64,000 nucleotides of DNA from Escherichia phage vB_EcoM_FJ1. Below are positions 4,310 through 54,741 of this stretch, in pieces (positions within the stretch are counted from its first letter, which is position 1; every line of letters begins with the position of its first letter). The notes below the pieces were generated by a model, which saw only the letters and a list, made by a program, of their open reading frames with translations, was not told the origin of the DNA and did not search any database. A program made the translations under genes and the position numbers. The DNA is taken from the sequence record MZ170040.1; one strand, written 5' to 3'.

Positions 4310-4852
4310 TCACTTTGAAATCATAGTTGGAATGACAGAATCAAGATAAGTCTTTAACGCAATAGCTTCGTCTTTGGTAAATGTGACAATATGCGCTCGA
4401 AAATCATCAATTTGACGAATAGTTAAGACATCTCCATCTTCATAACATTTTGATACATTTAAAACAGTTTCATCATTCTGATCGCACTGATCGCAAGCGT
4501 TAGTAATAATAGCATTGCAATTTTTAAGCCATTTTAAACTATGTTTTCTTTCATTAGAATAATAAAAATATTTAATGTAAGTTATAAAATTATCCCAATT
4601 ATTAATTGATAAGCATATTGACTCGCTTTCAATGTTAAATCCTGGGCATAAAGAATAGAAATGAATTTTATGCTCATCATTAATGCTTACAATTTTATCA
4701 GTGTAAGGTTTTTCAATTTGGGTTAAATGAATAATTTCGCTAGGCGTAAAATATAGCATATCGTCTTCTTGCGTCAAACGATACATATTATTTACTTTTT
4801 CTATAGCCAATTCACCAAAAAATGAACTAACTTCTAATACTAATCGTTTCAT
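4310..4852 (-). CDS. hypothetical protein, paralog of 3782..4303
   Basis: 180 aa; AAGGA SD; tandem duplicate of downstream gene. Confidence 0.75.
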   Translation of the reverse strand: MKRLVLEVSSFFGELAIEKVNNMYRLTQEDDMLYFTPSEIIHLTQIEKPYTDKIVSINDEHKIHFYSLCPGFNIESESICLSINNWDNFITYIKYFYYSNERKHSLKWLKNCNAIITNACDQCDQNDETVLNVSKCYEDGDVLTIRQIDDFRAHIVTFTKDEAIALKTYLDSVIPTMISK

Positions 4853-4853
4853 A

Positions 4854-5120
4854 TTAATCCTTTTTATTTGCGCTGATTTGTTCTAAAATTTTAGAGTATT
4901 CCTTTGTATCAGATTTACGTACAATTGATACACTATAAGGCATACTATCGGTGTCTTTTATAAAGCGTTCCAAATGACACTCTAACAAAATTTCTGGATT
5001 ATAAATCGTGTACATCAAATTACCTGTTGCTCCACGATATTGGCAGATTTCTACTGATTGAACACCATTCCATAATTTTGTTAAAACTAAGTCACCTACT
5101 TCTAATTTAGGAAAACTCAT
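4854..5120 (-). CDS. hypothetical protein (~88 aa)
   Basis: Track ORF starts at TTG; trimmed to ATG (MSFPKL...) with GGTGA SD. Confidence 0.55.
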   Translation of the reverse strand: MSFPKLEVGDLVLTKLWNGVQSVEICQYRGATGNLMYTIYNPEILLECHLERFIKDTDSMPYSVSIVRKSDTKEYSKILEQISANKKD

Positions 5121-12269: not shown

Positions 12270-12743
12270 TTATTTGAATGATTTAACGTACTGAATAGAA
12301 CCCTTACTATTCACAAAGGCAATTTTACCATTTTTATTATACATGGTAGCAGTACGCTGATAACCATAGGTTTGTTTACCAGATTGATAACCAACTAATG
12401 CAAAATTATCTTCACCCATTTTATTCTGTTTAGCGCGAATGCGTTCATGACCATGTGCCATAAGAACCTTAGCATCACCAGTTGCAATGGATCGACGAGT
12501 TTTTTCATCTTCAACTGCATTAACAAAGTCGTCAAATGAATCAAATTTAGCATGAGATTTATTATACAATTTTCCATCTACTGCATAATTATATCCCTGT
12601 ACATCCATCTCAACTTCTGTACCATCATCCAATACAGCAGTAATTTTTTGACCTTTTTTAAATTTCAAAAGATCAGTAAAAGATTCAGCAATAATTTGAG
12701 AATTAATAGCTGCTTCAGTGATAAATTCTTGATATGTTTTCAT
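12270..12743 (-). CDS. internal-protein-like (capsid-targeted) protein
   Basis: 157 aa; N-terminus MKTYQEFITEA matches T4 IP capsid-targeting sequence (MKTYQEFIAEA) incl. gp21 cleavage context; 10 nt downstream of denV. Confidence 0.75.
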   Translation of the reverse strand: MKTYQEFITEAAINSQIIAESFTDLLKFKKGQKITAVLDDGTEVEMDVQGYNYAVDGKLYNKSHAKFDSFDDFVNAVEDEKTRRSIATGDAKVLMAHGHERIRAKQNKMGEDNFALVGYQSGKQTYGYQRTATMYNKNGKIAFVNSKGSIQYVKSFK

Positions 12744-12752
12744 GGGTTTCCT

Positions 12753-13169
12753 TTAAATGTAAATATTTTTGCCGTAATACTTGTACCAGTGTGGCTTCAT
12801 TAAAATTTTTTCATCAAGTCGTTGTTGACTCAATTTAATAGCTGATTTGCATGGATTATAATCATTTTTCCATTCTATTGGAATATCGCTGATGTCAGGA
12901 ACTTCAGTATCTTTTATACTGAACCCGCGTTTTAAGCATTCCGTTATAATGTCTAATTGACGCTTTCGCAAAAATTCTAACTTATCGTAAAAGAACGTAA
13001 CATGGCCAGAACCTAAAATAAACTCGGAAGATATTTTAAAATCTTTAACGCGCTTACCGTTTGCCACATGCTTACGAACTATACCAAAAACACGCGGCAA
13101 TTCACGGTATTCTGCGATTAAATGTTGATCAGCAAGTTCAGATACTAAAGTCAAATTAATACGAGTCAT
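12753..13169 (-). CDS. denV: endonuclease V (pyrimidine-dimer DNA glycosylase)
   Basis: 138 aa; [17 protein letters not shown]...; near-identical to T4 DenV as recalled. Confidence 0.95.
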
Positions 13170-17500: not shown

Positions 17501-17631
17501 GTTTTGTGAAAAAATTTTTAAAAAGTTTTAGGGAATTCTAGGGCAGGGAGGGGAAATCAAAGGATAGGATAATATATTATAAAGGGTATAAACTAAATGA
17601 TGCCTAGAGAGGCCCGGAAAGGCCTAGATAC

Positions 17632-17660
17632 CAAAAAGCCCCAACCTTTTGGTCGGGGCT
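17632..17660 (-). terminator. rho-independent terminator
   Basis: Hairpin AGCCCCAACC-TTTT-GGTCGGGGCT then U5 on minus strand; near-duplicate of the 18188..18216 element. Confidence 0.6.
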
Positions 17661-17848
17661 AAGAATGTTATTTGATTTGTTTAGCAGACCAAATGCGATC
17701 TTTAATAATTTTTTGGATGTCTTCAACATACTCTAGGTCATGAGCATGTGGATTATCTTTGAAACTATGAGCTCGCGCAAGTTTCTGGCCTTCGGTCTTA
17801 ATTATCAAAAGTTCTTTAAGAATTGCTTCATACCTAGAGATAATTCCT

Positions 17849-18142
17849 TTAGCAATATTTTTTTTCTTGTGCTGCTTTAGGGTCAGCCTTAGGAGCAGGT
17901 TTACCTGAAGCCTTTGCAAAAGCAGCTCCAGTAGCAACTAAACTTTTCCAGGCCATACTAACTGCATTTCCCGTAAATCCTTCCGCTTTCATGTCGCGTG
18001 CGAACTGGAATCGCGATTCATCGGAAGCATCTTTATAGGAATATTTACCCGCGGCAATGGCTGCTTTTGCGACAGCTTGAATTTCGGTGCTAGATGCTTC
18101 ATTTAACACCGCTTCATTTAAAAATTGAGCATATGATTTCAT
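17849..18142 (-). CDS. internal-protein-like (capsid-targeted) protein
   Basis: 97 aa; N-terminus MKSYAQFLNEA resembles IP capsid-targeting sequence; Ala/Lys-rich; minus-strand TATAAATA box upstream. Confidence 0.65.
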   Translation of the reverse strand: MKSYAQFLNEAVLNEASSTEIQAVAKAAIAAGKYSYKDASDESRFQFARDMKAEGFTGNAVSMAWKSLVATGAAFAKASGKPAPKADPKAAQEKKYC

Positions 18143-18178
18143 CTTATTTCCTGTTTTAATTCGTGGTTTTAATATACT

Positions 18179-18186
18179 TATTTATA
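18179..18186 (-). promoter_or_regulatory. T4 late promoter box upstream of IP-like gene 17849..18142
   Basis: Exact TATAAATA on minus strand ~36 nt upstream of ATG; late expression fits a packaged internal protein. Confidence 0.5.
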
Positions 18187-18187
18187 C

Positions 18188-18216
18188 TAAAAAGCCCCAA
18201 CCTTTCGGTCGGGGCT
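18188..18216 (-). terminator. rho-independent terminator after RNA C/D-like region
   Basis: Hairpin AGCCCCAACC-TTTC-GGTCGGGGCT then U5 on minus strand. Confidence 0.6.
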
Positions 18217-18220
18217 AAGC

Positions 18221-18480
18221 CTTGCGGCAACCTTGTCGGGGTTCCACCTGCTAAGGCAAGTGTTTGTACGAAACGCCGGGACTTGAACCCGGTTATTAAG
18301 TAGTTGACGCTACTCAATATTTTTAAAAGGCCATATCTCGACCATATCCGAACGTTCCGTCAAAAACGCTACTCGGCTTACGGCAAAGATATTTCCTCGA
18401 ATCGATAATTCGGTGCGCCGTTTCTGCTGTGATGTAAGAGGGCATCAATAAACGCAAAGATTATTAACGCAATTCCTTAC
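18221..18480 (-). ncRNA. structured non-coding RNA region (T4 RNA C / RNA D position), tRNA-like T-arm element
   Basis: No ORF; between tRNA-Arg and a terminator; contains CCGGGTTCAAGTCCCGG (T-arm-like) on minus strand; boundaries approximate. Confidence 0.4.
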
Positions 18481-18530
18481 TCAGGGAGCATCAGTCCGAC
18501 GACTTACCGGTAGCGACCCGGTTTCTTGTC

Positions 18531-18610: not shown

Positions 18611-19276
18611 TTAAAATTTCATTTTTCGACCTTTAAACCATCCTTCTGGAATTGGGTCAGTTTTCTTAATACGTTTAGAAACTTTTTCATCTAATGAATG
18701 AATCCACATCATACCAAATTGGGAATTCTTTTCACCTTTTTGGTGATTATTTTTAGCATGAATTTCTTTCATTTTATTAATAGTTTCAAGAGTATGATGC
18801 TTATTTAAAAATCGGCTATTATTTAAAAATTTTTCTTTGTATTCAGGAGTTGACCACAAACGGTTAAATACATTTGAACCATTTTTACGATATTTTTCTT
18901 GAAGTAAAATATCATTTTTAAAACGTGACTTAAACGATTTAGCTCCTTTTAAACTAGCGTCTTTCTTCTGATTTAGCATCTCAGGAATATTTATATGATC
19001 CCATCCACCTTCACCGCCAAGTTTTAAATTATACACATCAGGTCTATTTAAAAACTCTTCTGTGACAATATTTTTCTCGGCTTCAAGCATAGATTCTTTA
19101 TCATCAAAATACTCTAATATTTCTTTAGAAAAATTTTCTATGCCATACTTATCTTGGGCTCTTTTTAATAATTTACCAGAACCCATATATCCATCATCTA
19201 AATTTTCGGTAGAATGCACACCAATATAAATTTTATTATTAATTTTATTTGTTATTTTATAAAGATAAAAATGCAT
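18611..19276 (-). CDS. segB: GIY-YIG homing endonuclease SegB
   Basis: 221 aa from ATG (MHFYLYKITN...IYIGVHS...GYMGSG); inside tRNA cluster as in T4; track ORF 5' extension overlaps a tRNA and is rejected. Confidence 0.8.
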   Translation of the reverse strand: MHFYLYKITNKINNKIYIGVHSTENLDDGYMGSGKLLKRAQDKYGIENFSKEILEYFDDKESMLEAEKNIVTEEFLNRPDVYNLKLGGEGGWDHINIPEMLNQKKDASLKGAKSFKSRFKNDILLQEKYRKNGSNVFNRLWSTPEYKEKFLNNSRFLNKHHTLETINKMKEIHAKNNHQKGEKNSQFGMMWIHSLDEKVSKRIKKTDPIPEGWFKGRKMKF

Positions 19277-19322
19277 ATCAGTCCCTAATAAAGAACTGAG
19301 CGTCTCACGACGAGTCATAAAT

Positions 19323-19409
19323 TGGTGGGGAGTGGTGGAGTCGAACCACCCGAGTCGCAATGACAATGGATTTACAGTCCACACCGCTACCTCTACGGGA
19401 TAACTCCCC
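19323..19409 (-). tRNA. class-II tRNA, anticodon GUA (tRNA-Tyr) - not part of the T4 set
   Basis: 87 nt; acceptor GGGGAGT/ACTCCCC, T-arm GGTGGTTCGACTCCACC, long variable arm, anticodon loop CTGTAAA; encoded CCA. Confidence 0.6.
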
Positions 19410-20374: not shown

Positions 20375-20755
20375 TCAACCTTCATCAACAATAGTATGAG
20401 TGTGGGCATTTACAATTTGCCACCAATCAAAGCGATTAGAACCATACATTGGTTTGTTCTCATTTTCTTTGATAATGTCACGGAGTTCATCTTCGGTAGC
20501 GGCTTTCGCGATTAAATCAGCATATCCACCGCGAGGATAATAATTATCACCTGCAAAAAGTAAAAAGTTCGGTTTAATATTATTGAACTCTTCAAGAGTA
20601 ATAACTTTTCCTGTCGGTTGAACAATCTCTACATATTTATATCCTAATTTTTGAGCAGCATCTACTGCTTCAAGCAAAGTATCATGAGCCCATCCAATTT
20701 GACAACCTGGCTTTTCAGATGGATTAGCCTGATAATCCGCGTACACTTTATACAT
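20375..20755 (-). CDS. hypothetical protein (~126 aa)
   Basis: Trimmed to ATG (MYKVYADYQ...) with AAGGTGA SD. Confidence 0.55.
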   Translation of the reverse strand: MYKVYADYQANPSEKPGCQIGWAHDTLLEAVDAAQKLGYKYVEIVQPTGKVITLEEFNNIKPNFLLFAGDNYYPRGGYADLIAKAATEDELRDIIKENENKPMYGSNRFDWWQIVNAHTHTIVDEG

Positions 20756-20756
20756 T

Positions 20757-20942
20757 CTATTCACCTTTAGAAATTTTATCCATAACGATAGCAATTAAAC
20801 CAATTAAAAATGCTACTACAAGTGAAAACACATTTTCTGCTGTAGTCAATAATCCGCATATAAATCCAACAAACATTGAAAAACTAAAAGCAGAAGCAGA
20901 AATTGCAATAGCAACATTTCGAATTAATTCACAACGTTTCAT
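20757..20942 (-). CDS. small hydrophobic (single/double TM) protein
   Basis: 61 aa, mostly hydrophobic; early promoter immediately upstream. Confidence 0.45.
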   Translation of the reverse strand: MKRCELIRNVAIAISASAFSFSMFVGFICGLLTTAENVFSLVVAFLIGLIAIVMDKISKGE

Positions 20943-21018: not shown

Positions 21019-21306
21019 TTACAAAAGATTTTTAGCAATAATCTTGAGATGTGCCGCAGAAATGTGTTTAGCTTTAAACAACGCAGTTTCTTCAGCAGGA
21101 GAGATAACGATTGTAGCACCATCCTTTTTAGCAGACCACCCATCACCTAGGTAAACAGTACCTTTGATTTCTTCGCCATCAACCAGACTAATCATTGGTT
21201 TACCTTCTCGTCCTTTATTTGCTTTAATAACTTCAGAAGTAAGAGTAGCCTCGGTAATGGTAGAAACCGGGGTAGTTGTAGAAGTAAATTCTTTAAATGT
21301 TTTCAT
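21019..21306 (-). CDS. internal-protein-like (capsid-targeted) protein, ipI position
   Basis: 95 aa; N-terminus MKTFKEFTS... resembles IP targeting sequence; located between tRNAs and 57B like T4 ipI; early promoter upstream. Confidence 0.6.
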   Translation of the reverse strand: MKTFKEFTSTTTPVSTITEATLTSEVIKANKGREGKPMISLVDGEEIKGTVYLGDGWSAKKDGATIVISPAEETALFKAKHISAAHLKIIAKNLL

Positions 21307-49887: not shown

Positions 49888-50312
49888 TGCTTCTGATCCC
49901 TGAAACTCATGAATTAGTTCTCGAGAATGTCGAAGCACTTATTCCTGAAGCACAGGGTCGCTTCGACGAATTGTCTTCTGCTTTAAATAAAGACGATATA
50001 AATACAATTGTCGAGAATATGCTTGATGATGAAACTGATTTAGCGGTTGCATTAGCTTCTATTAATGAAAATATGCCGTTAAATGAATTCATCGTTAAAC
50101 ATGTTTCTGCCCGTGGTGAAATTACTCGCACTAAAGATCGCAAAACCCGCGAACGTAATGCATTTCAAACTACCGGGTTGTCTAAAGCAAAACGTAGACA
50201 AATTGCTCGTAAAGCTACCAAAACGAAGATTGCCAATCCAGCAGGTCAATCTCGTGCTCAGCGTAAGCGTAAAAAAGCTCTTAAACGCCGTAAAGCATTA
50301 GGATTAAGCTAA
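49887..50312 (+). CDS. 68: gp68 prohead core protein
   Basis: 141 aa (same as T4); basic C-terminus. Confidence 0.85.
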
Positions 50313-50950
50313 TGAATGAACCCCAATTACTAATTGAAACTTGGGGTCAACCTGGCGAAATTATTGATGGCGTACCAATGCTTGAATCTCATGATGGAAA
50401 AGACTTAGGTTTAAAACCGGGTTTATACATCGAAGGAATATTCATGCAAGCGGAAGTCGTCAATAGAAATAAACGTCTTTATCCAAAACGCATATTAGAA
50501 AAAGCGGTAAAAGACTATATTAATGAGCAAGTTTTAACTAAACAAGCTCTCGGAGAATTAAATCATCCTCCACGCGCTAATGTTGACCCGATGCAAGCCG
50601 CTATCATTATAGAAGATATGTGGTGGAAAGGAAATGACGTATACGGACGAGCTCGTGTTATTGAAGGTGACCATGGTCCTGGAGATAAATTAGCAGCTAA
50701 TATTCGTGCCGGATGGATTCCAGGAGTTTCTTCTCGTGGATTAGGTTCATTGACTGACACAAATAAAGGTTATCGTATCGTAAACGAAGGATTCAAATTA
50801 ACTGTAGGTGTTGATGCAGTATGGGGTCCAAGTGCTCCAGATGCATGGGTAACTCCTAAGGAAATTACCGAATCACAGACGGCGGAAGCCGATACAAGTG
50901 CCGATGACGCCTATATGGCTCTCGCAGAGGCCATGAAAAAAGCGTTATAA
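50312..50950 (+). CDS. 21: gp21 prohead core scaffold / prohead protease
   Basis: 212 aa (same as T4). Confidence 0.93.
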   Translation: MNEPQLLIETWGQPGEIIDGVPMLESHDGKDLGLKPGLYIEGIFMQAEVVNRNKRLYPKRILEKAVKDYINEQVLTKQALGELNHPPRANVDPMQAAIIIEDMWWKGNDVYGRARVIEGDHGPGDKLAANIRAGWIPGVSSRGLGSLTDTNKGYRIVNEGFKLTVGVDAVWGPSAPDAWVTPKEITESQTAEADTSADDAYMALAEAMKKAL

Positions 50951-50980: not shown

Positions 50981-51790
50981 ATGCTTAAAGAACAACTGAT
51001 TGCCGAAGCGCAGAAAATTGATGCTTCCGTTGCTCTTGATAGTATTTTCGAATCAGTTAATATTTCTCCGGAAGCAAAAGAAACTTTCGGCACTGTATTC
51101 GAAGCTACCGTCAAGCAGCACGCCGTTAAATTAGCTGAATCTCATATCGCTAAAATTGCTGAAAAAGCAGAAGAAGAAGTAGAAAAAAATAAAGAAGAAG
51201 CCGAAGAAAAAGCTGAGAAGAAAATCGCTGAGCAAGCTTCTAAATTCATTGACCATCTTGCGAAAGAATGGCTCGCTGAAAATAAATTAGCAGTTGATAA
51301 AGGCATCAAAGCCGAACTGTTTGAATCCATGCTCGGTGGATTAAAAGAGCTCTTTGTTGAACACAACGTTGTTGTTCCAGAAGAATCAGTTGATATTGTA
51401 GCTGAAATGGAAGAAGAGCTGCAAGAACATAAAGAAGAATCAGCTCGTCTGTTCGAAGAACTCAATAAGCGTGACGCATATATCAATTATGTGCAGCGTG
51501 AAGTGGCATTGAGCGAAAGTACTAAAGATCTGACTGAGTCTCAAAAAGAAAAAGTCTCTGCTCTGGTCGAAGGTATGGATTATTCAGATGCATTCTCAAG
51601 TAAATTGAGTGCAATCGTAGAAATGGTGAAGAAATCTAATAAAGATGAAAGCACTATTACTGAGAGTATAAATACTCCTGATACTGAAGCAGCCGGACTG
51701 AATTTCGTCACTGAAGCTGTAGAAGATAAAGCTGCACCTGGTGCAGAAGATATTGTAAGTGTATATGCGAAAGTCGCATCTCGTTTCTAA
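50981..51790 (+). CDS. 22: gp22 prohead core scaffold protein
   Basis: 269 aa; Glu/Lys-rich coiled-coil; late promoter upstream. Confidence 0.9.
   Translation: MLKEQLIAEAQKIDASVALDSIFESVNISPEAKETFGTVFEATVKQHAVKLAESHIAKIAEKAEEEVEKNKEEAEEKAEKKIAEQASKFIDHLAKEWLAENKLAVDKGIKAELFESMLGGLKELFVEHNVVVPEESVDIVAEMEEELQEHKEESARLFEELNKRDAYINYVQREVALSESTKDLTESQKEKVSALVEGMDYSDAFSSKLSAIVEMVKKSNKDESTITESINTPDTEAAGLNFVTEAVEDKAAPGAEDIVSVYAKVASRF
51667..51674 (+). promoter_or_regulatory. T4 late promoter box inside gene 22 (P23-like)
   Basis: TATAAATA within the 3' end of gene 22 coding sequence, ~135 nt upstream of gene 23. Confidence 0.5.
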
Positions 51791-51808: not shown

Positions 51809-53374
51809 ATGACTATCAAAACTAAAGCTGAACTTTTGAACAAATGGAAGCCATTACTGGAAGGTGAAGGTTTACCGGAAATTGCTAATAGCAAACAAGC
51901 GATTATCGCTAAAATCTTTGAAAACCAGGAAAAAGATTTCCAGACAGCTCCAGAGTACAAAGACGAAAAAATCGCTCAGGCGTTCGGTTCTTTCTTAACA
52001 GAAGCTGAAATCGGTGGTGACCACGGTTACAATGCTACCAACATCGCTGCAGGTCAGACTTCTGGCGCAGTAACCCAGATTGGCCCGGCTGTTATGGGTA
52101 TGGTACGTCGTGCTATTCCTAACCTGATTGCTTTCGATATTTGCGGTGTTCAGCCGATGAACAGCCCGACTGGTCAGGTATTCGCACTGCGCGCAGTATA
52201 TGGTAAAGACCCAATCGCTTCCGGCGCTAAAGAAGCATTCCACCCAATGTATGGTCCAGATGCAATGTTCTCTGGTCAGGGTGCTGCTAAGAAATTCGCT
52301 GCTTTGAAAGCAAATGATACTCTTGAAGTCGGAACTATTTACACTCACTTCTTCCAGGAAACTGGTACAGTATATCTGCAAGCTACAGAAGCTAAACAAA
52401 TTGATTCTACTGCATCTGACGCAGCTAAATTAGATGCTGAAATTAAGAAACAAATGGAAGCTGGTGTACTGGTAGAAATCGCTGAAGGTATGGCTACTTC
52501 TATCGCTGAACTCCAGGAAGGTTTCAATGGCTCTACCGATAACCCATGGAATGAAATGGGCTTCCGTATCGATAAACAAGTTATCGAAGCTAAATCTCGT
52601 CAGCTGAAAGCTGCTTACTCTATTGAATTAGCACAAGACCTCCGCGCTGTTCACGGTATGGATGCTGATGCTGAACTGTCTGGTATTCTGGCTACAGAAA
52701 TTATGCTGGAAATCAACCGTGAAGTTGTTGATTGGATTAACTACTCCGCACAGGTTGGTAAATCTGGTATGACCCTGACTCCGGGTTCTAAAGCTGGTGT
52801 ATTTGACTTCCAGGACCCAATCGATATTCGTGGTGCTCGCTGGGCAGGTGAATCCTTTAAAGCTTTGTTGTTCCAGATTGACAAAGAAGCAGTTGAAATT
52901 GCTCGTCAGACCGGTCGTGGTGAAGGTAACTTCATTATCGCTTCCCGTAACGTAGTTAACGTTCTGGCTTCAGTTGATACCGGCATTTCTTATGCTGCAC
53001 AAGGTCTGGCTACCGGCTTTAACACTGATACTACCAAGTCAGTATTTGCTGGTGTTCTGGGTGGTAAATACCGCGTATATATCGACCAGTATGCTAAACA
53101 GGATTATTTCACTGTAGGTTATAAAGGTCCTAACGAAATGGATGCTGGTATTTACTATGCTCCATATGTAGCTCTGACTCCGCTGCGTGGTTCCGATCCG
53201 AAGAACTTCCAACCGGTAATGGGATTCAAAACTCGTTACGGTATCGGTATCAACCCATTTGCAGAATCCGCTGCTCAGGCTCCGGCTTCTCGCATCCAGA
53301 GCGGTATGCCTTCTATTCTGAATAGCCTTGGTAAAAACGCTTACTTCCGCCGTGTATATGTTAAAGGTATCTAA
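51809..53374 (+). CDS. 23: major capsid protein
   Basis: 521 aa (same as T4 gp23); highly biased codon usage; terminator after stop. Confidence 0.97.
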   Translation: MTIKTKAELLNKWKPLLEGEGLPEIANSKQAIIAKIFENQEKDFQTAPEYKDEKIAQAFGSFLTEAEIGGDHGYNATNIAAGQTSGAVTQIGPAVMGMVRRAIPNLIAFDICGVQPMNSPTGQVFALRAVYGKDPIASGAKEAFHPMYGPDAMFSGQGAAKKFAALKANDTLEVGTIYTHFFQETGTVYLQATEAKQIDSTASDAAKLDAEIKKQMEAGVLVEIAEGMATSIAELQEGFNGSTDNPWNEMGFRIDKQVIEAKSRQLKAAYSIELAQDLRAVHGMDADAELSGILATEIMLEINREVVDWINYSAQVGKSGMTLTPGSKAGVFDFQDPIDIRGARWAGESFKALLFQIDKEAVEIARQTGRGEGNFIIASRNVVNVLASVDTGISYAAQGLATGFNTDTTKSVFAGVLGGKYRVYIDQYAKQDYFTVGYKGPNEMDAGIYYAPYVALTPLRGSDPKNFQPVMGFKTRYGIGINPFAESAAQAPASRIQSGMPSILNSLGKNAYFRRVYVKGI

Positions 53375-53457: not shown

Positions 53458-54741
53458 ATGGCTAAAATCAACGAACTTCTGCGCGAATCAACCACAACGA
53501 ATAGCAACTCAATCGGTCGCCCAAATCTCGTTGCTTTGACTCGCGCTACCACTAAATTAATATATTCTGACATTGTAGCAACGCAAAGAACTAATCAACC
53601 TGTTGCTGCTTTTTATGGTATCAAATACCTTAACCCAGATAACGAATTTACATTTAAAACTGGTGCTACTTATGCTGGCGAAGCTGGATATGTAGACCGA
53701 GAACAAATCACAGAATTAACAGAAGAGTCTAAATTAACTCTCAATAAAGGCGATTTATTCAAATATAATAATATCGTTTATAAAGTATTAGAAGATACAC
53801 CATTTGCTGATATTGAAGAAAGTGATTTAGAATTAGCTCTTCAGATTGCAATTGTTCTTTTAAAGGTTCGTCTATTTTCTGATGCTGCAGTAACAAGCAA
53901 ATTTGAAAGCTCTGATAGTGAAATTGCGGATGCTAGATTCCAGATTAATAAATGGCAAACCGCAGTTAAATCTCGTAAACTTAAAACTGGCATTACAGTT
54001 GAATTAGCACAAGATTTAGAAGCAAATGGATTCGATGCTCCTAATTTCTTGGAAGATTTGCTTGCAACCGAAATGGCAGATGAAATCAATAAAGATATTC
54101 TGCAGTCTTTGATTACAGTATCAAAACGTTATAAAGTTACAGGAATTACTGATACTGGATTCATTGATTTGAGTTATGCATCTGCACCTGAAGCGGGTCG
54201 TTCATTATATCGAATGGTATGTGAAATGGTTTCACATATCCAAAAAGAATCAACTTATACAGCAACGTTCTGTGTTGCTTCAGCTCGTGCTGCTGCGATT
54301 CTTGCTGCATCAGGTTGGTTAAAACATAAACCAGAAGATGATAAATATCTTTCACAAAATGCCTACGGGTTCTTAGCTAACGGTTTACCGCTTTATTGCG
54401 ATACTAACAGCCCATTAGATTATGTAATCGTTGGTGTAGTAGAAAATATCGGTGAAAAAGAAATTGTTGGATCAATTTTCTATGCTCCGTATACAGAAGG
54501 TCTCGACTTAGATGACCCTGAACATGTAGGTGCATTTAAAGTTGTTGTTGACCCAGAAAGTTTGCAGCCATCTATCGGTTTATTAGTTAGATATGCTTTA
54601 TCAGCAAATCCTTACACCGTAGCAAAAGATGAAAAAGAAGCAAGAGTAATTGATGGTGGAGACATGGATAAAATGGCGGGTCGTTCAGATTTGTCTGTTT
54701 TATTAGGTGTTAAGCTACCAAAAATTATCATTGATGAATAA
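53458..54741 (+). CDS. 24: capsid vertex protein
   Basis: 427 aa (same as T4 gp24); follows gene 23 directly with no segD in between. Confidence 0.95.
   Translation: MAKINELLRESTTTNSNSIGRPNLVALTRATTKLIYSDIVATQRTNQPVAAFYGIKYLNPDNEFTFKTGATYAGEAGYVDREQITELTEESKLTLNKGDLFKYNNIVYKVLEDTPFADIEESDLELALQIAIVLLKVRLFSDAAVTSKFESSDSEIADARFQINKWQTAVKSRKLKTGITVELAQDLEANGFDAPNFLEDLLATEMADEINKDILQSLITVSKRYKVTGITDTGFIDLSYASAPEAGRSLYRMVCEMVSHIQKESTYTATFCVASARAAAILAASGWLKHKPEDDKYLSQNAYGFLANGLPLYCDTNSPLDYVIVGVVENIGEKEIVGSIFYAPYTEGLDLDDPEHVGAFKVVVDPESLQPSIGLLVRYALSANPYTVAKDEKEARVIDGGDMDKMAGRSDLSVLLGVKLPKIIIDE

What the first reader, a model, noticed from the sequence alone, without database searches (positions are those of the whole stretch)
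17849..18186. Second IP-like gene, Ala/Lys-rich, with late promoter
MKSYAQFLNEA... resembles the capsid-targeting sequence, the rest is low-complexity Ala/Lys-rich, and an exact minus-strand TATAAATA box lies upstream. This is consistent with a late-expressed packaged protein and is a candidate injected DNA-binding or anti-restriction protein.
Basis: partly seen in the sequence, partly recalled or inferred. Interest (0 to 1): 0.45.

Follow-up and report, generated by a model that had tools for sequence, protein, structure and literature searches.

The report
Frameshifted candidate phage internal protein gene
The flagged open reading frame is the front half of a 157-codon gene of a T4-like phage, broken here by one extra A in a run of As; the gene has the N-terminal tag that T4 uses to load proteins into its head, so it is probably a so-far unannotated packaged and injected "internal protein".

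Summary
The sequence features are real. A 97-codon minus-strand ORF lies at 17849-18142. An exact TATAAATA lies 44 nt (first base) upstream of its ATG. It starts MKSYAQFLNEA, is 24% Ala and 12% Lys, and has pI 9.2. But the ORF is not a whole gene. In about 500 T4-like phage genomes the homologue is a single ORF of 154-157 codons (PHROG 2280, unknown function, always annotated "hypothetical"). The window has A8 (17858-17865) where relatives have A7, so the frame breaks and the most conserved part, the C-terminal helical hairpin, is lost. This is a rare allele or a homopolymer sequencing error.

The internal-protein reading holds up fairly well. The four capsid-targeting-sequence positions shown by mutagenesis to matter (4, 7, 8, 10) are all kept, including in distant homologues. 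There are two L-x-E prohead-protease sites. The window also encodes the gp21 protease and the gp22 scaffold. The ~95% identical Gp140 of Yersinia phage fD1 was detected by LC-MS/MS in purified virions, though that dataset has low specificity.

The gene sits in a 556-bp cassette (late promoter, gene, terminator) bounded by 36-nt direct repeats. T4 lacks the cassette. Its site lies outside the two known ip loci. An anti-restriction function is inferred only by analogy.

The parts
18184..18219 (-). Upstream copy of a 36-nt direct repeat. It contains a rho-independent terminator hairpin (stem-loop 18193-18216 plus a T-run) that ends the tRNA/rnaD/rnaC transcription unit.
18179..18186 (-). Exact T4-type late promoter box TATAAATA, with its first base 44 nt upstream of the ATG.
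   Evidence: conserved at -34 to -48 in relatives
18149..18152 (-). Shine-Dalgarno AGGA, 6 nt before the ATG.
   Evidence: read directly from the sequence
18098..18142 (-). Codons 1-15, MKSYAQFLNE|AVLNE|A. This is the CTS-like propeptide, with Y4, F7, L8, E10 and two L-x-E putative gp21 cleavage sites (after E10 and E15).
17849..18142 (-). The flagged 97-codon ORF. It is the 5' part of the gene (CTS, three-helix N-domain, Ala/Lys/Pro linker), and it ends in the aberrant residues K-Y-C-stop after the frameshift.
17858..17865 (-). A8 homopolymer run. Relatives have A7, and the extra A causes the frameshift.
17668..17857 (-). The 3' part of the gene, now out of frame. It encodes the C-terminal helical hairpin (NIAKGIISRYEAILKELL...IWSAKQIK). 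It is 100% identical at the DNA level to intact relatives, and it is the most constrained part of the gene.
17628..17663 (-). Downstream copy of the 36-nt direct repeat (terminator hairpin 17637-17660), 94% identical to the upstream copy and 556 nt from it. T4 has a single hybrid copy and no gene here.
50312..50950 (+). Trans-acting partner: gp21-type prohead core serine protease (Peptidase_S77), which would remove the CTS.
50981..51790 (+). Trans-acting partner: gp22-type scaffolding core protein (T4_CASP), the presumed docking target of the CTS.
   Evidence: role taken from PMC9026906

Best explanation
The locus is a small accessory gene of a T4-like (Tequatrovirus) phage, a member of PHROG 2280. 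It most likely encodes an internal (head-packaged, injected) protein. In this window the gene is interrupted by a +1 frameshift in an A-run.

Proposed mechanism. The tRNA/rnaD/rnaC transcript terminates at the hairpin at 18193-18216. Late transcription then starts at TATAAATA (18179-18186). The protein's first 10 residues (MKSYAQFLNE) act as a capsid-targeting sequence that docks it to the gp22 scaffolding core of the prohead. The gp21 protease cleaves after L-N-E10 and/or L-N-E15. The basic mature protein (pI about 9.5; about 15.5 kDa if intact, about 8.5-9 kDa for the truncated allele) stays in the head with the DNA and is injected at the next infection. By analogy with Ip1-3, it would there neutralise a host defence, most plausibly a subtype of type IV (GmrSD-like) restriction enzyme.

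Shown: the ORF, promoter, terminators, frameshift, CTS key residues and cleavage motifs; strong purifying selection; presence of gp21 and gp22 in the window; and MS detection of the fD1 homologue in virion preparations. Inferred: CTS function, processing, injection and the anti-defence target. The A8 allele in this window loses the most constrained domain, so it is probably a loss-of-function or hypomorphic variant, or a sequencing error.
For: Gene structure. The window has A8 against A7, and otherwise the 3' half is 100% identical to intact 474-nt genes. Both halves hit PHROG 2280. 469 of 511 phage records carry it as one full-length ORF, and 8 of 8 full-length IMG/VR loci are intact.

CTS. 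Mutagenesis reviewed in PMC9026906 places targeting at residues 4 and 7 and processing at residues 8 and 10, with gp21 cutting after L/I-X-E. The ORF has Y4, F7, L8 and E10. Distant homologues of about 40% identity or less keep an aromatic at 4, F7 and L/V8, and nearly all keep E10 (MLKFNEFLAEG, MINFSDFLNEG, MKSFSSFLNEG). The N-terminus ranks 2nd of 584 frames, above the genuine IPI homologue. It shares only 24 of 33 nt with the leader of the other ip gene in the window, so it is not a recent copy.

Expression. The conserved late promoter follows a terminator directly.

Machinery. The gp21 protease, gp22 scaffold and gp23 are in the same window.

Virion detection. fD1 g140 (157 aa, about 95% identical) is flagged PPAP at the strict threshold in Table S3 of PMC8309999.

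Context. In phage fHe-Yen9-01 two PHROG 2280 paralogues and a third CTS-like ORF lie in tandem. The protein's size, pI and Lys content match those of T4 IPII and IPIII.

Real gene. dN/dS is about 0.1.

Functional analogy. Ip1, Ip2 and Ip3 each inhibit a distinct GmrSD type IV enzyme, and IPs share only the leader.
Against: The fD1 proteome flagged 113-137 of 277 phage proteins (including rIIA) and 672 host proteins, so 'particle-associated' is weak evidence of true packaging.

No database annotates the family as an internal protein. Its N-terminus did not reach IP PHROG profiles in hmmscan.

The gene is not in either of the two recognised ip loci.

Nothing in the fold or sequence points to any activity.

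Some lineages have M-T-E instead of L-x-E at the first site. A few have AATAAATA or CATAAATA instead of the exact promoter box.

In this window the gene is broken, so it may do nothing here.
Confidence: 0.6

Rival explanations
1. The frameshift is an artefact. The phage really has A7 and an intact 157-codon gene, and the A8 is a homopolymer error of sequencing or assembly. This rival concerns only the truncation, not the nature of the gene.
For: The 3' half shows no further decay and is 100% identical to intact relatives over about 190 nt. That half is under very strong purifying selection, with dN/dS of 0.01-0.05. Near-identical sibling records differ by just this base: bov10K1 (166364 nt, A8) against bov9_1 (166363 nt, A7). 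Pu-Krd-SF4 has an odd A7+C insertion at the same spot. A6, A8 and other truncated versions are scattered over unrelated lineages at a few percent.
Against: The same A8 or 97-aa allele occurs in several independent deposits: bov10K1, UniProt/BFVD A0A653G153, and P0008 in another lineage. G28 and teqhal also show a 472-nt two-piece match, consistent with a +1 frameshift though the run itself was not read there. A-runs are also true mutational hot spots, and accessory genes are often lost.
Confidence: 0.4
2. It is a late-expressed cytoplasmic protein that is not packaged. On this view the N-terminal similarity to the CTS is a relic of shared 5' ends or is coincidental, and the MS detection reflects contamination.
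For: The fD1 virion preparation contained many non-structural proteins. No annotation or profile links the family to IPs.
Against: The four functionally mapped CTS positions are conserved across homologues that are otherwise 40% identical or less. The motif is unique to the three IP-type ORFs in the 64-kb window. According to the literature, the first 10 residues are sufficient to package foreign proteins.
Confidence: 0.15
3. It is packaged but acts generically. It would be a basic, histone-like DNA-binding and charge-neutralising head protein that aids DNA condensation or ejection, and not a specific defence inhibitor.
For: It has pI 9.2-9.5, 12-13% Lys and a KPAPKADPKAAQEK linker. Lysines of internal proteins contact DNA phosphates in T4 heads (PMC3012670).
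Against: The folded domains are under strong, residue-specific purifying selection, while the Lys-rich linker is the variable part. The gene is an accessory indel absent from T4, which fits an arms-race function better. All three T4 IPs now have specific GmrSD targets.
Confidence: 0.2
4. The A-run is a programmed slippage or frameshift site (or a phase-variation switch) that yields two products on purpose: a short 97-aa form and a long 157-aa form.
For: The A7 run is kept in 10 diverged loci although neighbouring synonymous sites vary. A6 and A8 alleles recur. From general knowledge, E. coli RNA polymerase slips on long A/T runs, so some in-frame mRNA could arise from A8.
Against: phiD1 has CAAGAGAAAAAT, a synonymous change that interrupts the run, yet its protein was detected. 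Distant homologues have no run. Off-length alleles make up only about 4%. No stimulatory structure or stall codon was seen. AT-rich codon usage for E-K-N gives A7 by default.
Confidence: 0.07

Closest known systems
T4 internal proteins IPII and IPIII (ipII, ipIII; PHROG 2667/3155-type 'internal virion/head protein')
   Same: The N-terminal leader is M-K-[ST]-Y-x-[QE]-F-[LI]-x-E|A, against MKTYQEFIAE|A in T4. There is an L/I-x-E gp21 cleavage motif. The proteins are small and basic (pI 9.3-9.5, 13-15% Lys). The genes are non-essential, variably present accessory genes in the e-tRNA-ipI hyperplastic region.
   Different: There is no similarity beyond the leader. The gene lies at a different position: between the rnaC terminator and e.8, not next to e/denV or 57B. 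It has two domains joined by an Ala/Lys/Pro linker. No target is known, whereas Ip2 and Ip3 inhibit GmrSD of ECOR21 and ECOR17 respectively.
T4 IPI (ipI; PHROG 4363), inhibitor of GmrSD-CT596
   Same: It has a CTS-type leader and is packaged and injected. The Klebsiella and Yersinia homologues (MKFKEFLAE...) resemble the IPI leader MKTFKEF.
   Different: IPI has a 19-residue propeptide and a compact alpha/beta fold. The present protein is predicted to be all-helical. There is no sequence or fold similarity.
ip4-ip10 genes of T-even phages (Repoila et al. 1994, as cited in PMC12373910)
   Same: They follow the same concept: diverse ORFs recognised as internal proteins only by the conserved leader.
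   Different: Those genes were described at the known ip loci. Their sequences could not be retrieved, so identity with any of them is neither shown nor excluded. All database records of this family say 'hypothetical protein'.
Yersinia phage fD1/phiD1 Gp140 (BN81_140)
   Same: It is the direct orthologue: 157 aa, about 95% identical, at the same position after e.8. It was detected in virion LC-MS/MS.
   Different: It is intact, and its A-run is interrupted by GAG. It is annotated only as a hypothetical protein / PPAP.
Terminator- or promoter-flanked mobile cassettes of T4-type phages (morons; 'PeSL'-type modular shuffling - recalled from memory, not checked)
   Same: It is a discrete 556-bp unit of promoter, gene and terminator, bounded by 36-nt direct repeats. 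T4 has a single hybrid repeat at the empty site.
   Different: The repeat here is a terminator followed by a late promoter upstream and an early promoter downstream. Membership of the published PeSL class was not tested.

Membership tests
T4-type internal proteins (CTS-bearing prohead-core cargo) | N-terminal ~10-residue capsid-targeting sequence, with the residues needed for targeting (positions 4 and 7) | tested here: met
   Y4 and F7 are present. An aromatic at 4 and F7 are conserved in all homologues, including distant ones. The requirement is taken from PMC9026906. The N-terminus ranks 2nd of 584 frames.
T4-type internal proteins (CTS-bearing prohead-core cargo) | gp21 processing motif L/I-X-E at the end of the leader (positions 8 and 10) | tested here: met
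   L8-N9-E10|A11, and a second L13-N14-E15|A16. Some lineages have L-M-T-E or L-T-E.
T4-type internal proteins (CTS-bearing prohead-core cargo) | The phage has the gp21 prohead protease and the gp22 scaffolding core | tested here: met
   Peptidase_S77 at 50312-50950 (E 1.5e-111) and T4_CASP at 50981-51790 (E 1.3e-89).
T4-type internal proteins (CTS-bearing prohead-core cargo) | The protein is physically present in purified virions | tested here: inconclusive
   The orthologue fD1 Gp140 is flagged PPAP by LC-MS/MS. However, about half of the phage proteome and 672 host proteins were also detected. There are no data for this phage.
T4-type internal proteins (CTS-bearing prohead-core cargo) | The leader is removed in the mature virion protein, and the protein is injected with the DNA | not testable with these tools
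   This needs N-terminal or semi-tryptic MS and injection assays.
T4-type internal proteins (CTS-bearing prohead-core cargo) | The gene lies in one of the two recognised ip loci (near ipI/57B or near e/denV). This is a usual feature, not a strictly defining one. | tested here: not met
   It lies between the rnaC terminator and e.8. 'Two Ip loci' is from PMC12373910.
Ip-type inhibitors of GmrSD type IV restriction enzymes | Specific inhibition of a GmrSD variant, or rescue of ip-deficient T-even phage plating | not testable with these tools
   This rests only on analogy with Ip1-3. There is no sequence or fold similarity to IPI-III.
PHROG 2280 (unknown function) | Significant match to the family profile | tested here: met
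   97-aa ORF: E 3.9e-37, profile positions 1-90. 3' fragment: E 5.3e-14, profile positions 109-172. Intact homologue P0001: E 3.2e-59.
Programmed frameshift / transcriptional slippage genes | A slippery run conserved across the family, with the off-frame configuration as the normal state | tested here: not met
   A7, which is in frame, is the norm. A8 occurs in about 1 of 51 close records and in 2 of 55 Tequatrovirus records of a spread sample. phiD1 interrupts the run with GAG, and distant homologues lack it.

The most novel reading that the evidence does not exclude
PHROG 2280 would be a previously unrecognised internal-protein family that defines a third ip locus of T-even phages. It is present in about 500 sequenced Tevenvirinae (Escherichia, Shigella, Yersinia, Klebsiella and Citrobacter phages) but absent from T4. 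It is carried on a 556-bp late-promoter/terminator cassette that is gained and lost by recombination between duplicated terminators. Its mature protein would be injected to block a host defence not covered by Ip1-Ip10, for example one of the GmrSD subtypes active against T-even phages for which Silas et al. found no inhibitor. The A-run would act as a mutational on/off switch.
Probability: 0.3. Interest if true: 0.6.

Novelty: new member of a known kind. Interest (0 to 1): 0.4.

Why it matters
All three T4 internal proteins have now been shown to be specific inhibitors of different GmrSD type IV restriction enzymes (PMC12373910). Several GmrSD subtypes active against T-even phages still have no known inhibitor.

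This family is a widespread, strongly conserved gene that carries the CTS. It sits outside the two known ip loci and is annotated everywhere as "hypothetical". That makes it a concrete, cheaply testable candidate for a new injected anti-defence protein.

The finding also matters for annotation. The 97-codon ORF should not be treated as a gene in its own right. It should be treated as a frameshifted allele, or a homopolymer error, of a 157-codon gene.

Tried and rejected
- **Pfam and NCBIfam scans** of the intact homologues found nothing above noise.
- **Structure.** The AlphaFold2 model (pLDDT 73) was searched with Foldseek against PDB and BFVD. It gave no informative structural neighbour, only family members, including a 97-aa entry identical to the window allele.
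- **Profile search** of 1.84 billion representative proteins found only 13 hits, all phage family members or fragments. It gave no link to a characterised protein.
- **Programmed frameshifting or slippage** was considered and rejected as the main explanation.
- **Recent copying of an ip 5' end by recombination** was considered as the source of the N-terminus. It was rejected because only 24 of 33 nt match and the upstream regions are unrelated.
- **Repoila et al. 1994**, the source of ip4-ip10, is not held in the library. The supplements of Silas et al. contain no sequences matching this family. Whether this family equals one of ip4-ip10 therefore stays open.
- **Literature searches** for locus names (RB32ORF133c, g131c) and for fHe-Yen9-01 proteomics were unproductive.
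- **Rfam** search of the flanking RNA region found tRNAs only.

Full report
**Setting.** The window is a T4-like (Tequatrovirus) phage genome segment. No record in the phage collection is more than about 96% identical over 20 kb. The minus strand carries the T4 order trna.4-trna.2, a tRNA cluster with a segB-like GIY-YIG gene, tRNA-Arg, and then a stretch about 98% identical to T4 rnaD and rnaC. The flagged ORF comes next, followed by homologues of e.8 to e, denV and an internal-protein gene.

**Observation.** The 97-codon ORF (17849-18142, minus strand) and the exact TATAAATA (18179-18186, minus strand) are present.
- The octamer is enriched in the window: 25 copies against 9.2 +/- 3.5 in shuffles.
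- This copy lies 44 nt (first base) before the ATG. It directly follows a strong terminator hairpin (18193-18216). An AGGA Shine-Dalgarno precedes the ATG.
- The box is conserved at -34 to -48 in most relatives. A few have AATAAATA or CATAAATA instead.
- The protein is 23.7% Ala and 12.4% Lys, with pI 9.2. This is close to T4 IPII (pI 9.33) and IPIII (pI 9.54).

**The ORF is half a gene.**
- The ORF hits PHROG 2280 at profile positions 1-90 of 178. The next small reading frame (17668-17832) hits positions 109-172 of the same profile.
- In phages SA20RB and JK23 the region is one 474-nt ORF. The only length difference is A8 in the window (17858-17865) against A7.
- After the run, the window is 100% identical to the intact relatives, so there is no secondary decay.
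- Of 51 phage records matching a 69-mer around the run, only bov10K1 shares A8, and there it is annotated as a 294-nt CDS. Pu-Krd-SF4 has A7+C. The other 49 align over 68 nt, consistent with A7.
- By tblastn, 469 of 511 records carry a full-length single-piece match. Two of the 55 Tequatrovirus records in a spread sample of 60 (G28, teqhal) are split.
- All 8 full-length IMG/VR loci have A7.
- Truncated proteins from A8 (P0008, in a different lineage) and from the -1 frame (P0006 of SfPhi01, and P0009) exist in the protein collection. BFVD holds an identical 97-aa entry.
- Sibling records bov10K1 and bov9_1 differ in total length by one base.
- I cannot tell whether the window's A8 is a real mutation or a homopolymer error. 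I put the chance of artefact at about 0.4.
- Programmed slippage is unlikely. phiD1 interrupts the run with a synonymous GAG, distant homologues lack the run, and the in-frame A7 is the norm.

**The gene is real and constrained.** Nei-Gojobori dN/dS between diverged Tequatrovirus alleles is about 0.1 overall. It is 0.01-0.05 for the C-terminal ~60 codons, which are exactly the part lost in the window allele.

The AlphaFold2 model (pLDDT 73) has four parts:
- residues 1-15 are low-confidence (pLDDT below 50), with a short helix modelled at 4-11;
- residues 18-71 form a three-helix domain;
- residues 72-87 are the Ala/Lys/Pro linker;
- residues 88-154 form a long helical hairpin.

Distant homologues in Yersinia and Klebsiella T4-like phages share the N-domain. 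Some of them carry a different C-terminal module.

**Is it an internal protein?**
- The review PMC9026906 states that the first 10 residues of IPIII suffice for encapsidation. Targeting depends mainly on residues 4 and 7 and processing on residues 8 and 10. gp21 cuts after L/I-X-E.
- T4 IPII and IPIII begin MKTYQEFIAE|A, and IPI begins MKTFKEF...ITE|A.
- The ORF begins MKSYAQFLNE|AVLNE|A. It has Y4, F7, L8 and E10, plus a second L-x-E.
- Homologues keep an aromatic at 4, F7 and L/V8 down to about 40% identity or below, and nearly all keep E10. Examples are MKTYNEFLNES, MKSYAEFLTEQ, MLEYSEFLKEL, MKFKEFLAEA, MLKFNEFLAEG, MINFSDFLNEG and MKSFSSFLNEG.
- Among 584 ATG-initiated frames in the window, the N-terminus scores second. 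It lies between the PHROG 3155 'internal virion protein' ORF (12270-12743) and the IPI homologue (21019-21306).
- At the DNA level only 24 of 33 leader nucleotides match the other ip gene, so the conservation is at the protein level.
- The window also encodes the machinery: gp21 protease, gp22 scaffold and gp23.
- In phage fHe-Yen9-01 two PHROG 2280 paralogues and a third CTS-like ORF lie in tandem beside tRNA genes.

**Virion evidence.** Yersinia phage fD1 (phiD1) carries the orthologue g140, which is 157 aa, about 95% identical and in the same position. Table S3 of PMC8309999 marks it PPAP. That means it was identified by LC-MS/MS of ultracentrifuge-purified virions at the strict threshold of at least 2 peptides and a mean spectral count of at least 2. 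The neighbouring e.8 homologue g139 was not detected, while the two known IP homologues (g129, g146) were. The caveat is that 113-137 of 277 phage proteins (including rIIA) and 672 host proteins were detected, so specificity is low.

**Cassette structure.**
- The upstream terminator (within 18184-18219) and the downstream terminator (within 17628-17663) are 36-nt direct repeats, 94% identical and 556 nt apart.
- T4 lacks the gene. It has one hybrid copy, which joins the left flank of the upstream copy to the right flank of the downstream copy.
- The unit of late promoter, gene and terminator is therefore a discrete indel. It is explained most simply by recombination between duplicated terminators.
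- Its site differs from the "two Ip loci" described by Silas et al..

**Function.** No Pfam, NCBIfam, PDB or BFVD match is informative. The best functional guess comes from precedent. IPs share only the leader, and Ip1, Ip2 and Ip3 each inhibit a distinct GmrSD type IV restriction enzyme. Several active GmrSD groups lack a known inhibitor, and ip4-10 gave no hits against them. I therefore propose an injected anti-defence role. I rate it at roughly 0.35-0.4 given that the protein is packaged, ahead of a generic DNA-binding role.

In this window the truncated product would still carry the CTS and the family's core N-domain, so it could still be packaged. It lacks the most constrained domain, however, and is probably impaired.

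**Verdict.** This is a real and correctly spotted IP-like feature, but it was mis-delimited. It is the 5' half of a frameshifted member of an unannotated, widespread candidate internal-protein family. It is a new member of a known kind and of moderate interest.

Noticed in passing
window 18184-18219 and 17628-17663; L001 (T4) 4830-4870: Two 36-nt, 94% identical copies of one terminator hairpin bracket the gene, 556 nt apart. T4 has a single hybrid copy at the empty site. The promoter-gene-terminator unit is therefore an indel cassette, probably gained or lost by recombination between the repeats.
   Followed up: yes
window 18220-18530 (minus strand): This stretch is about 98% identical to T4 rnaD plus rnaC (the stable species 2 and species 1 RNAs). 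No Rfam family matches it. ORFs listed there (18156-18317, 18323-18457), which some phage records annotate as proteins, are probably spurious.
   Followed up: partly
L012 (Yersinia phage fHe-Yen9-01) 200-358, 922-1491, 1501-2037: Three tandem ORFs have CTS-like N-termini (MKTYIEFINE, MLQYNEFLKE, MLEYSEFLKE). The last two are both PHROG 2280 paralogues. The first hits PHROG 3684 (unknown function). Together they look like an unannotated ip-gene cluster next to tRNA genes.
   Followed up: partly
protein P0014 (94 aa, from a 2898-nt contig): This is a chimera of the N-terminal part of Trna.3 (compare window 20375-20794) and the last 32 residues of this family. It implies that some phage has a deletion removing the whole tRNA region between the two genes.
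   Followed up: no
window 12270-12743 (minus strand): This is a second CTS-bearing ORF (MKTYQEFITEAAINS..., 157 aa; PHROG 3155 'internal virion protein', Pfam DUF7412). It lies downstream of the denV homologue (12753-13169), not between e and denV as ipIII and ipII do in T4. No TATAAATA lies within 50 nt upstream of it.
   Followed up: partly
window 18611-19409 (minus strand): A segB-like GIY-YIG homing-endonuclease ORF sits inside the tRNA cluster. The longest ORF call (GTG start at 19384) overlaps the ARAGORN tRNA-Tyr prediction (19323-19409), which scores only as a weak tRNA-Sec-like hit in Rfam. Either the endonuclease starts further in, or the tRNA call is doubtful.
   Followed up: no
proteins P0006, P0008, P0009, P0016, P0020; phage records G28, teqhal, bov10K1, Pu-Krd-SF4: Truncated versions of this gene recur in unrelated lineages: -1 and +1 shifts at the A-run, plus other breakpoints. 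The gene is either frequently inactivated or frequently mis-sequenced.
   Followed up: partly
window 49997, 50946, 51667, 53423 (plus strand): Exact TATAAATA boxes lie at positions consistent with late promoters of the head gene block: gp68-like/gp21 (50312-50950), gp22 (50981-51790), gp23 (51809-53374) and gp24 (53458-54741).
   Followed up: no
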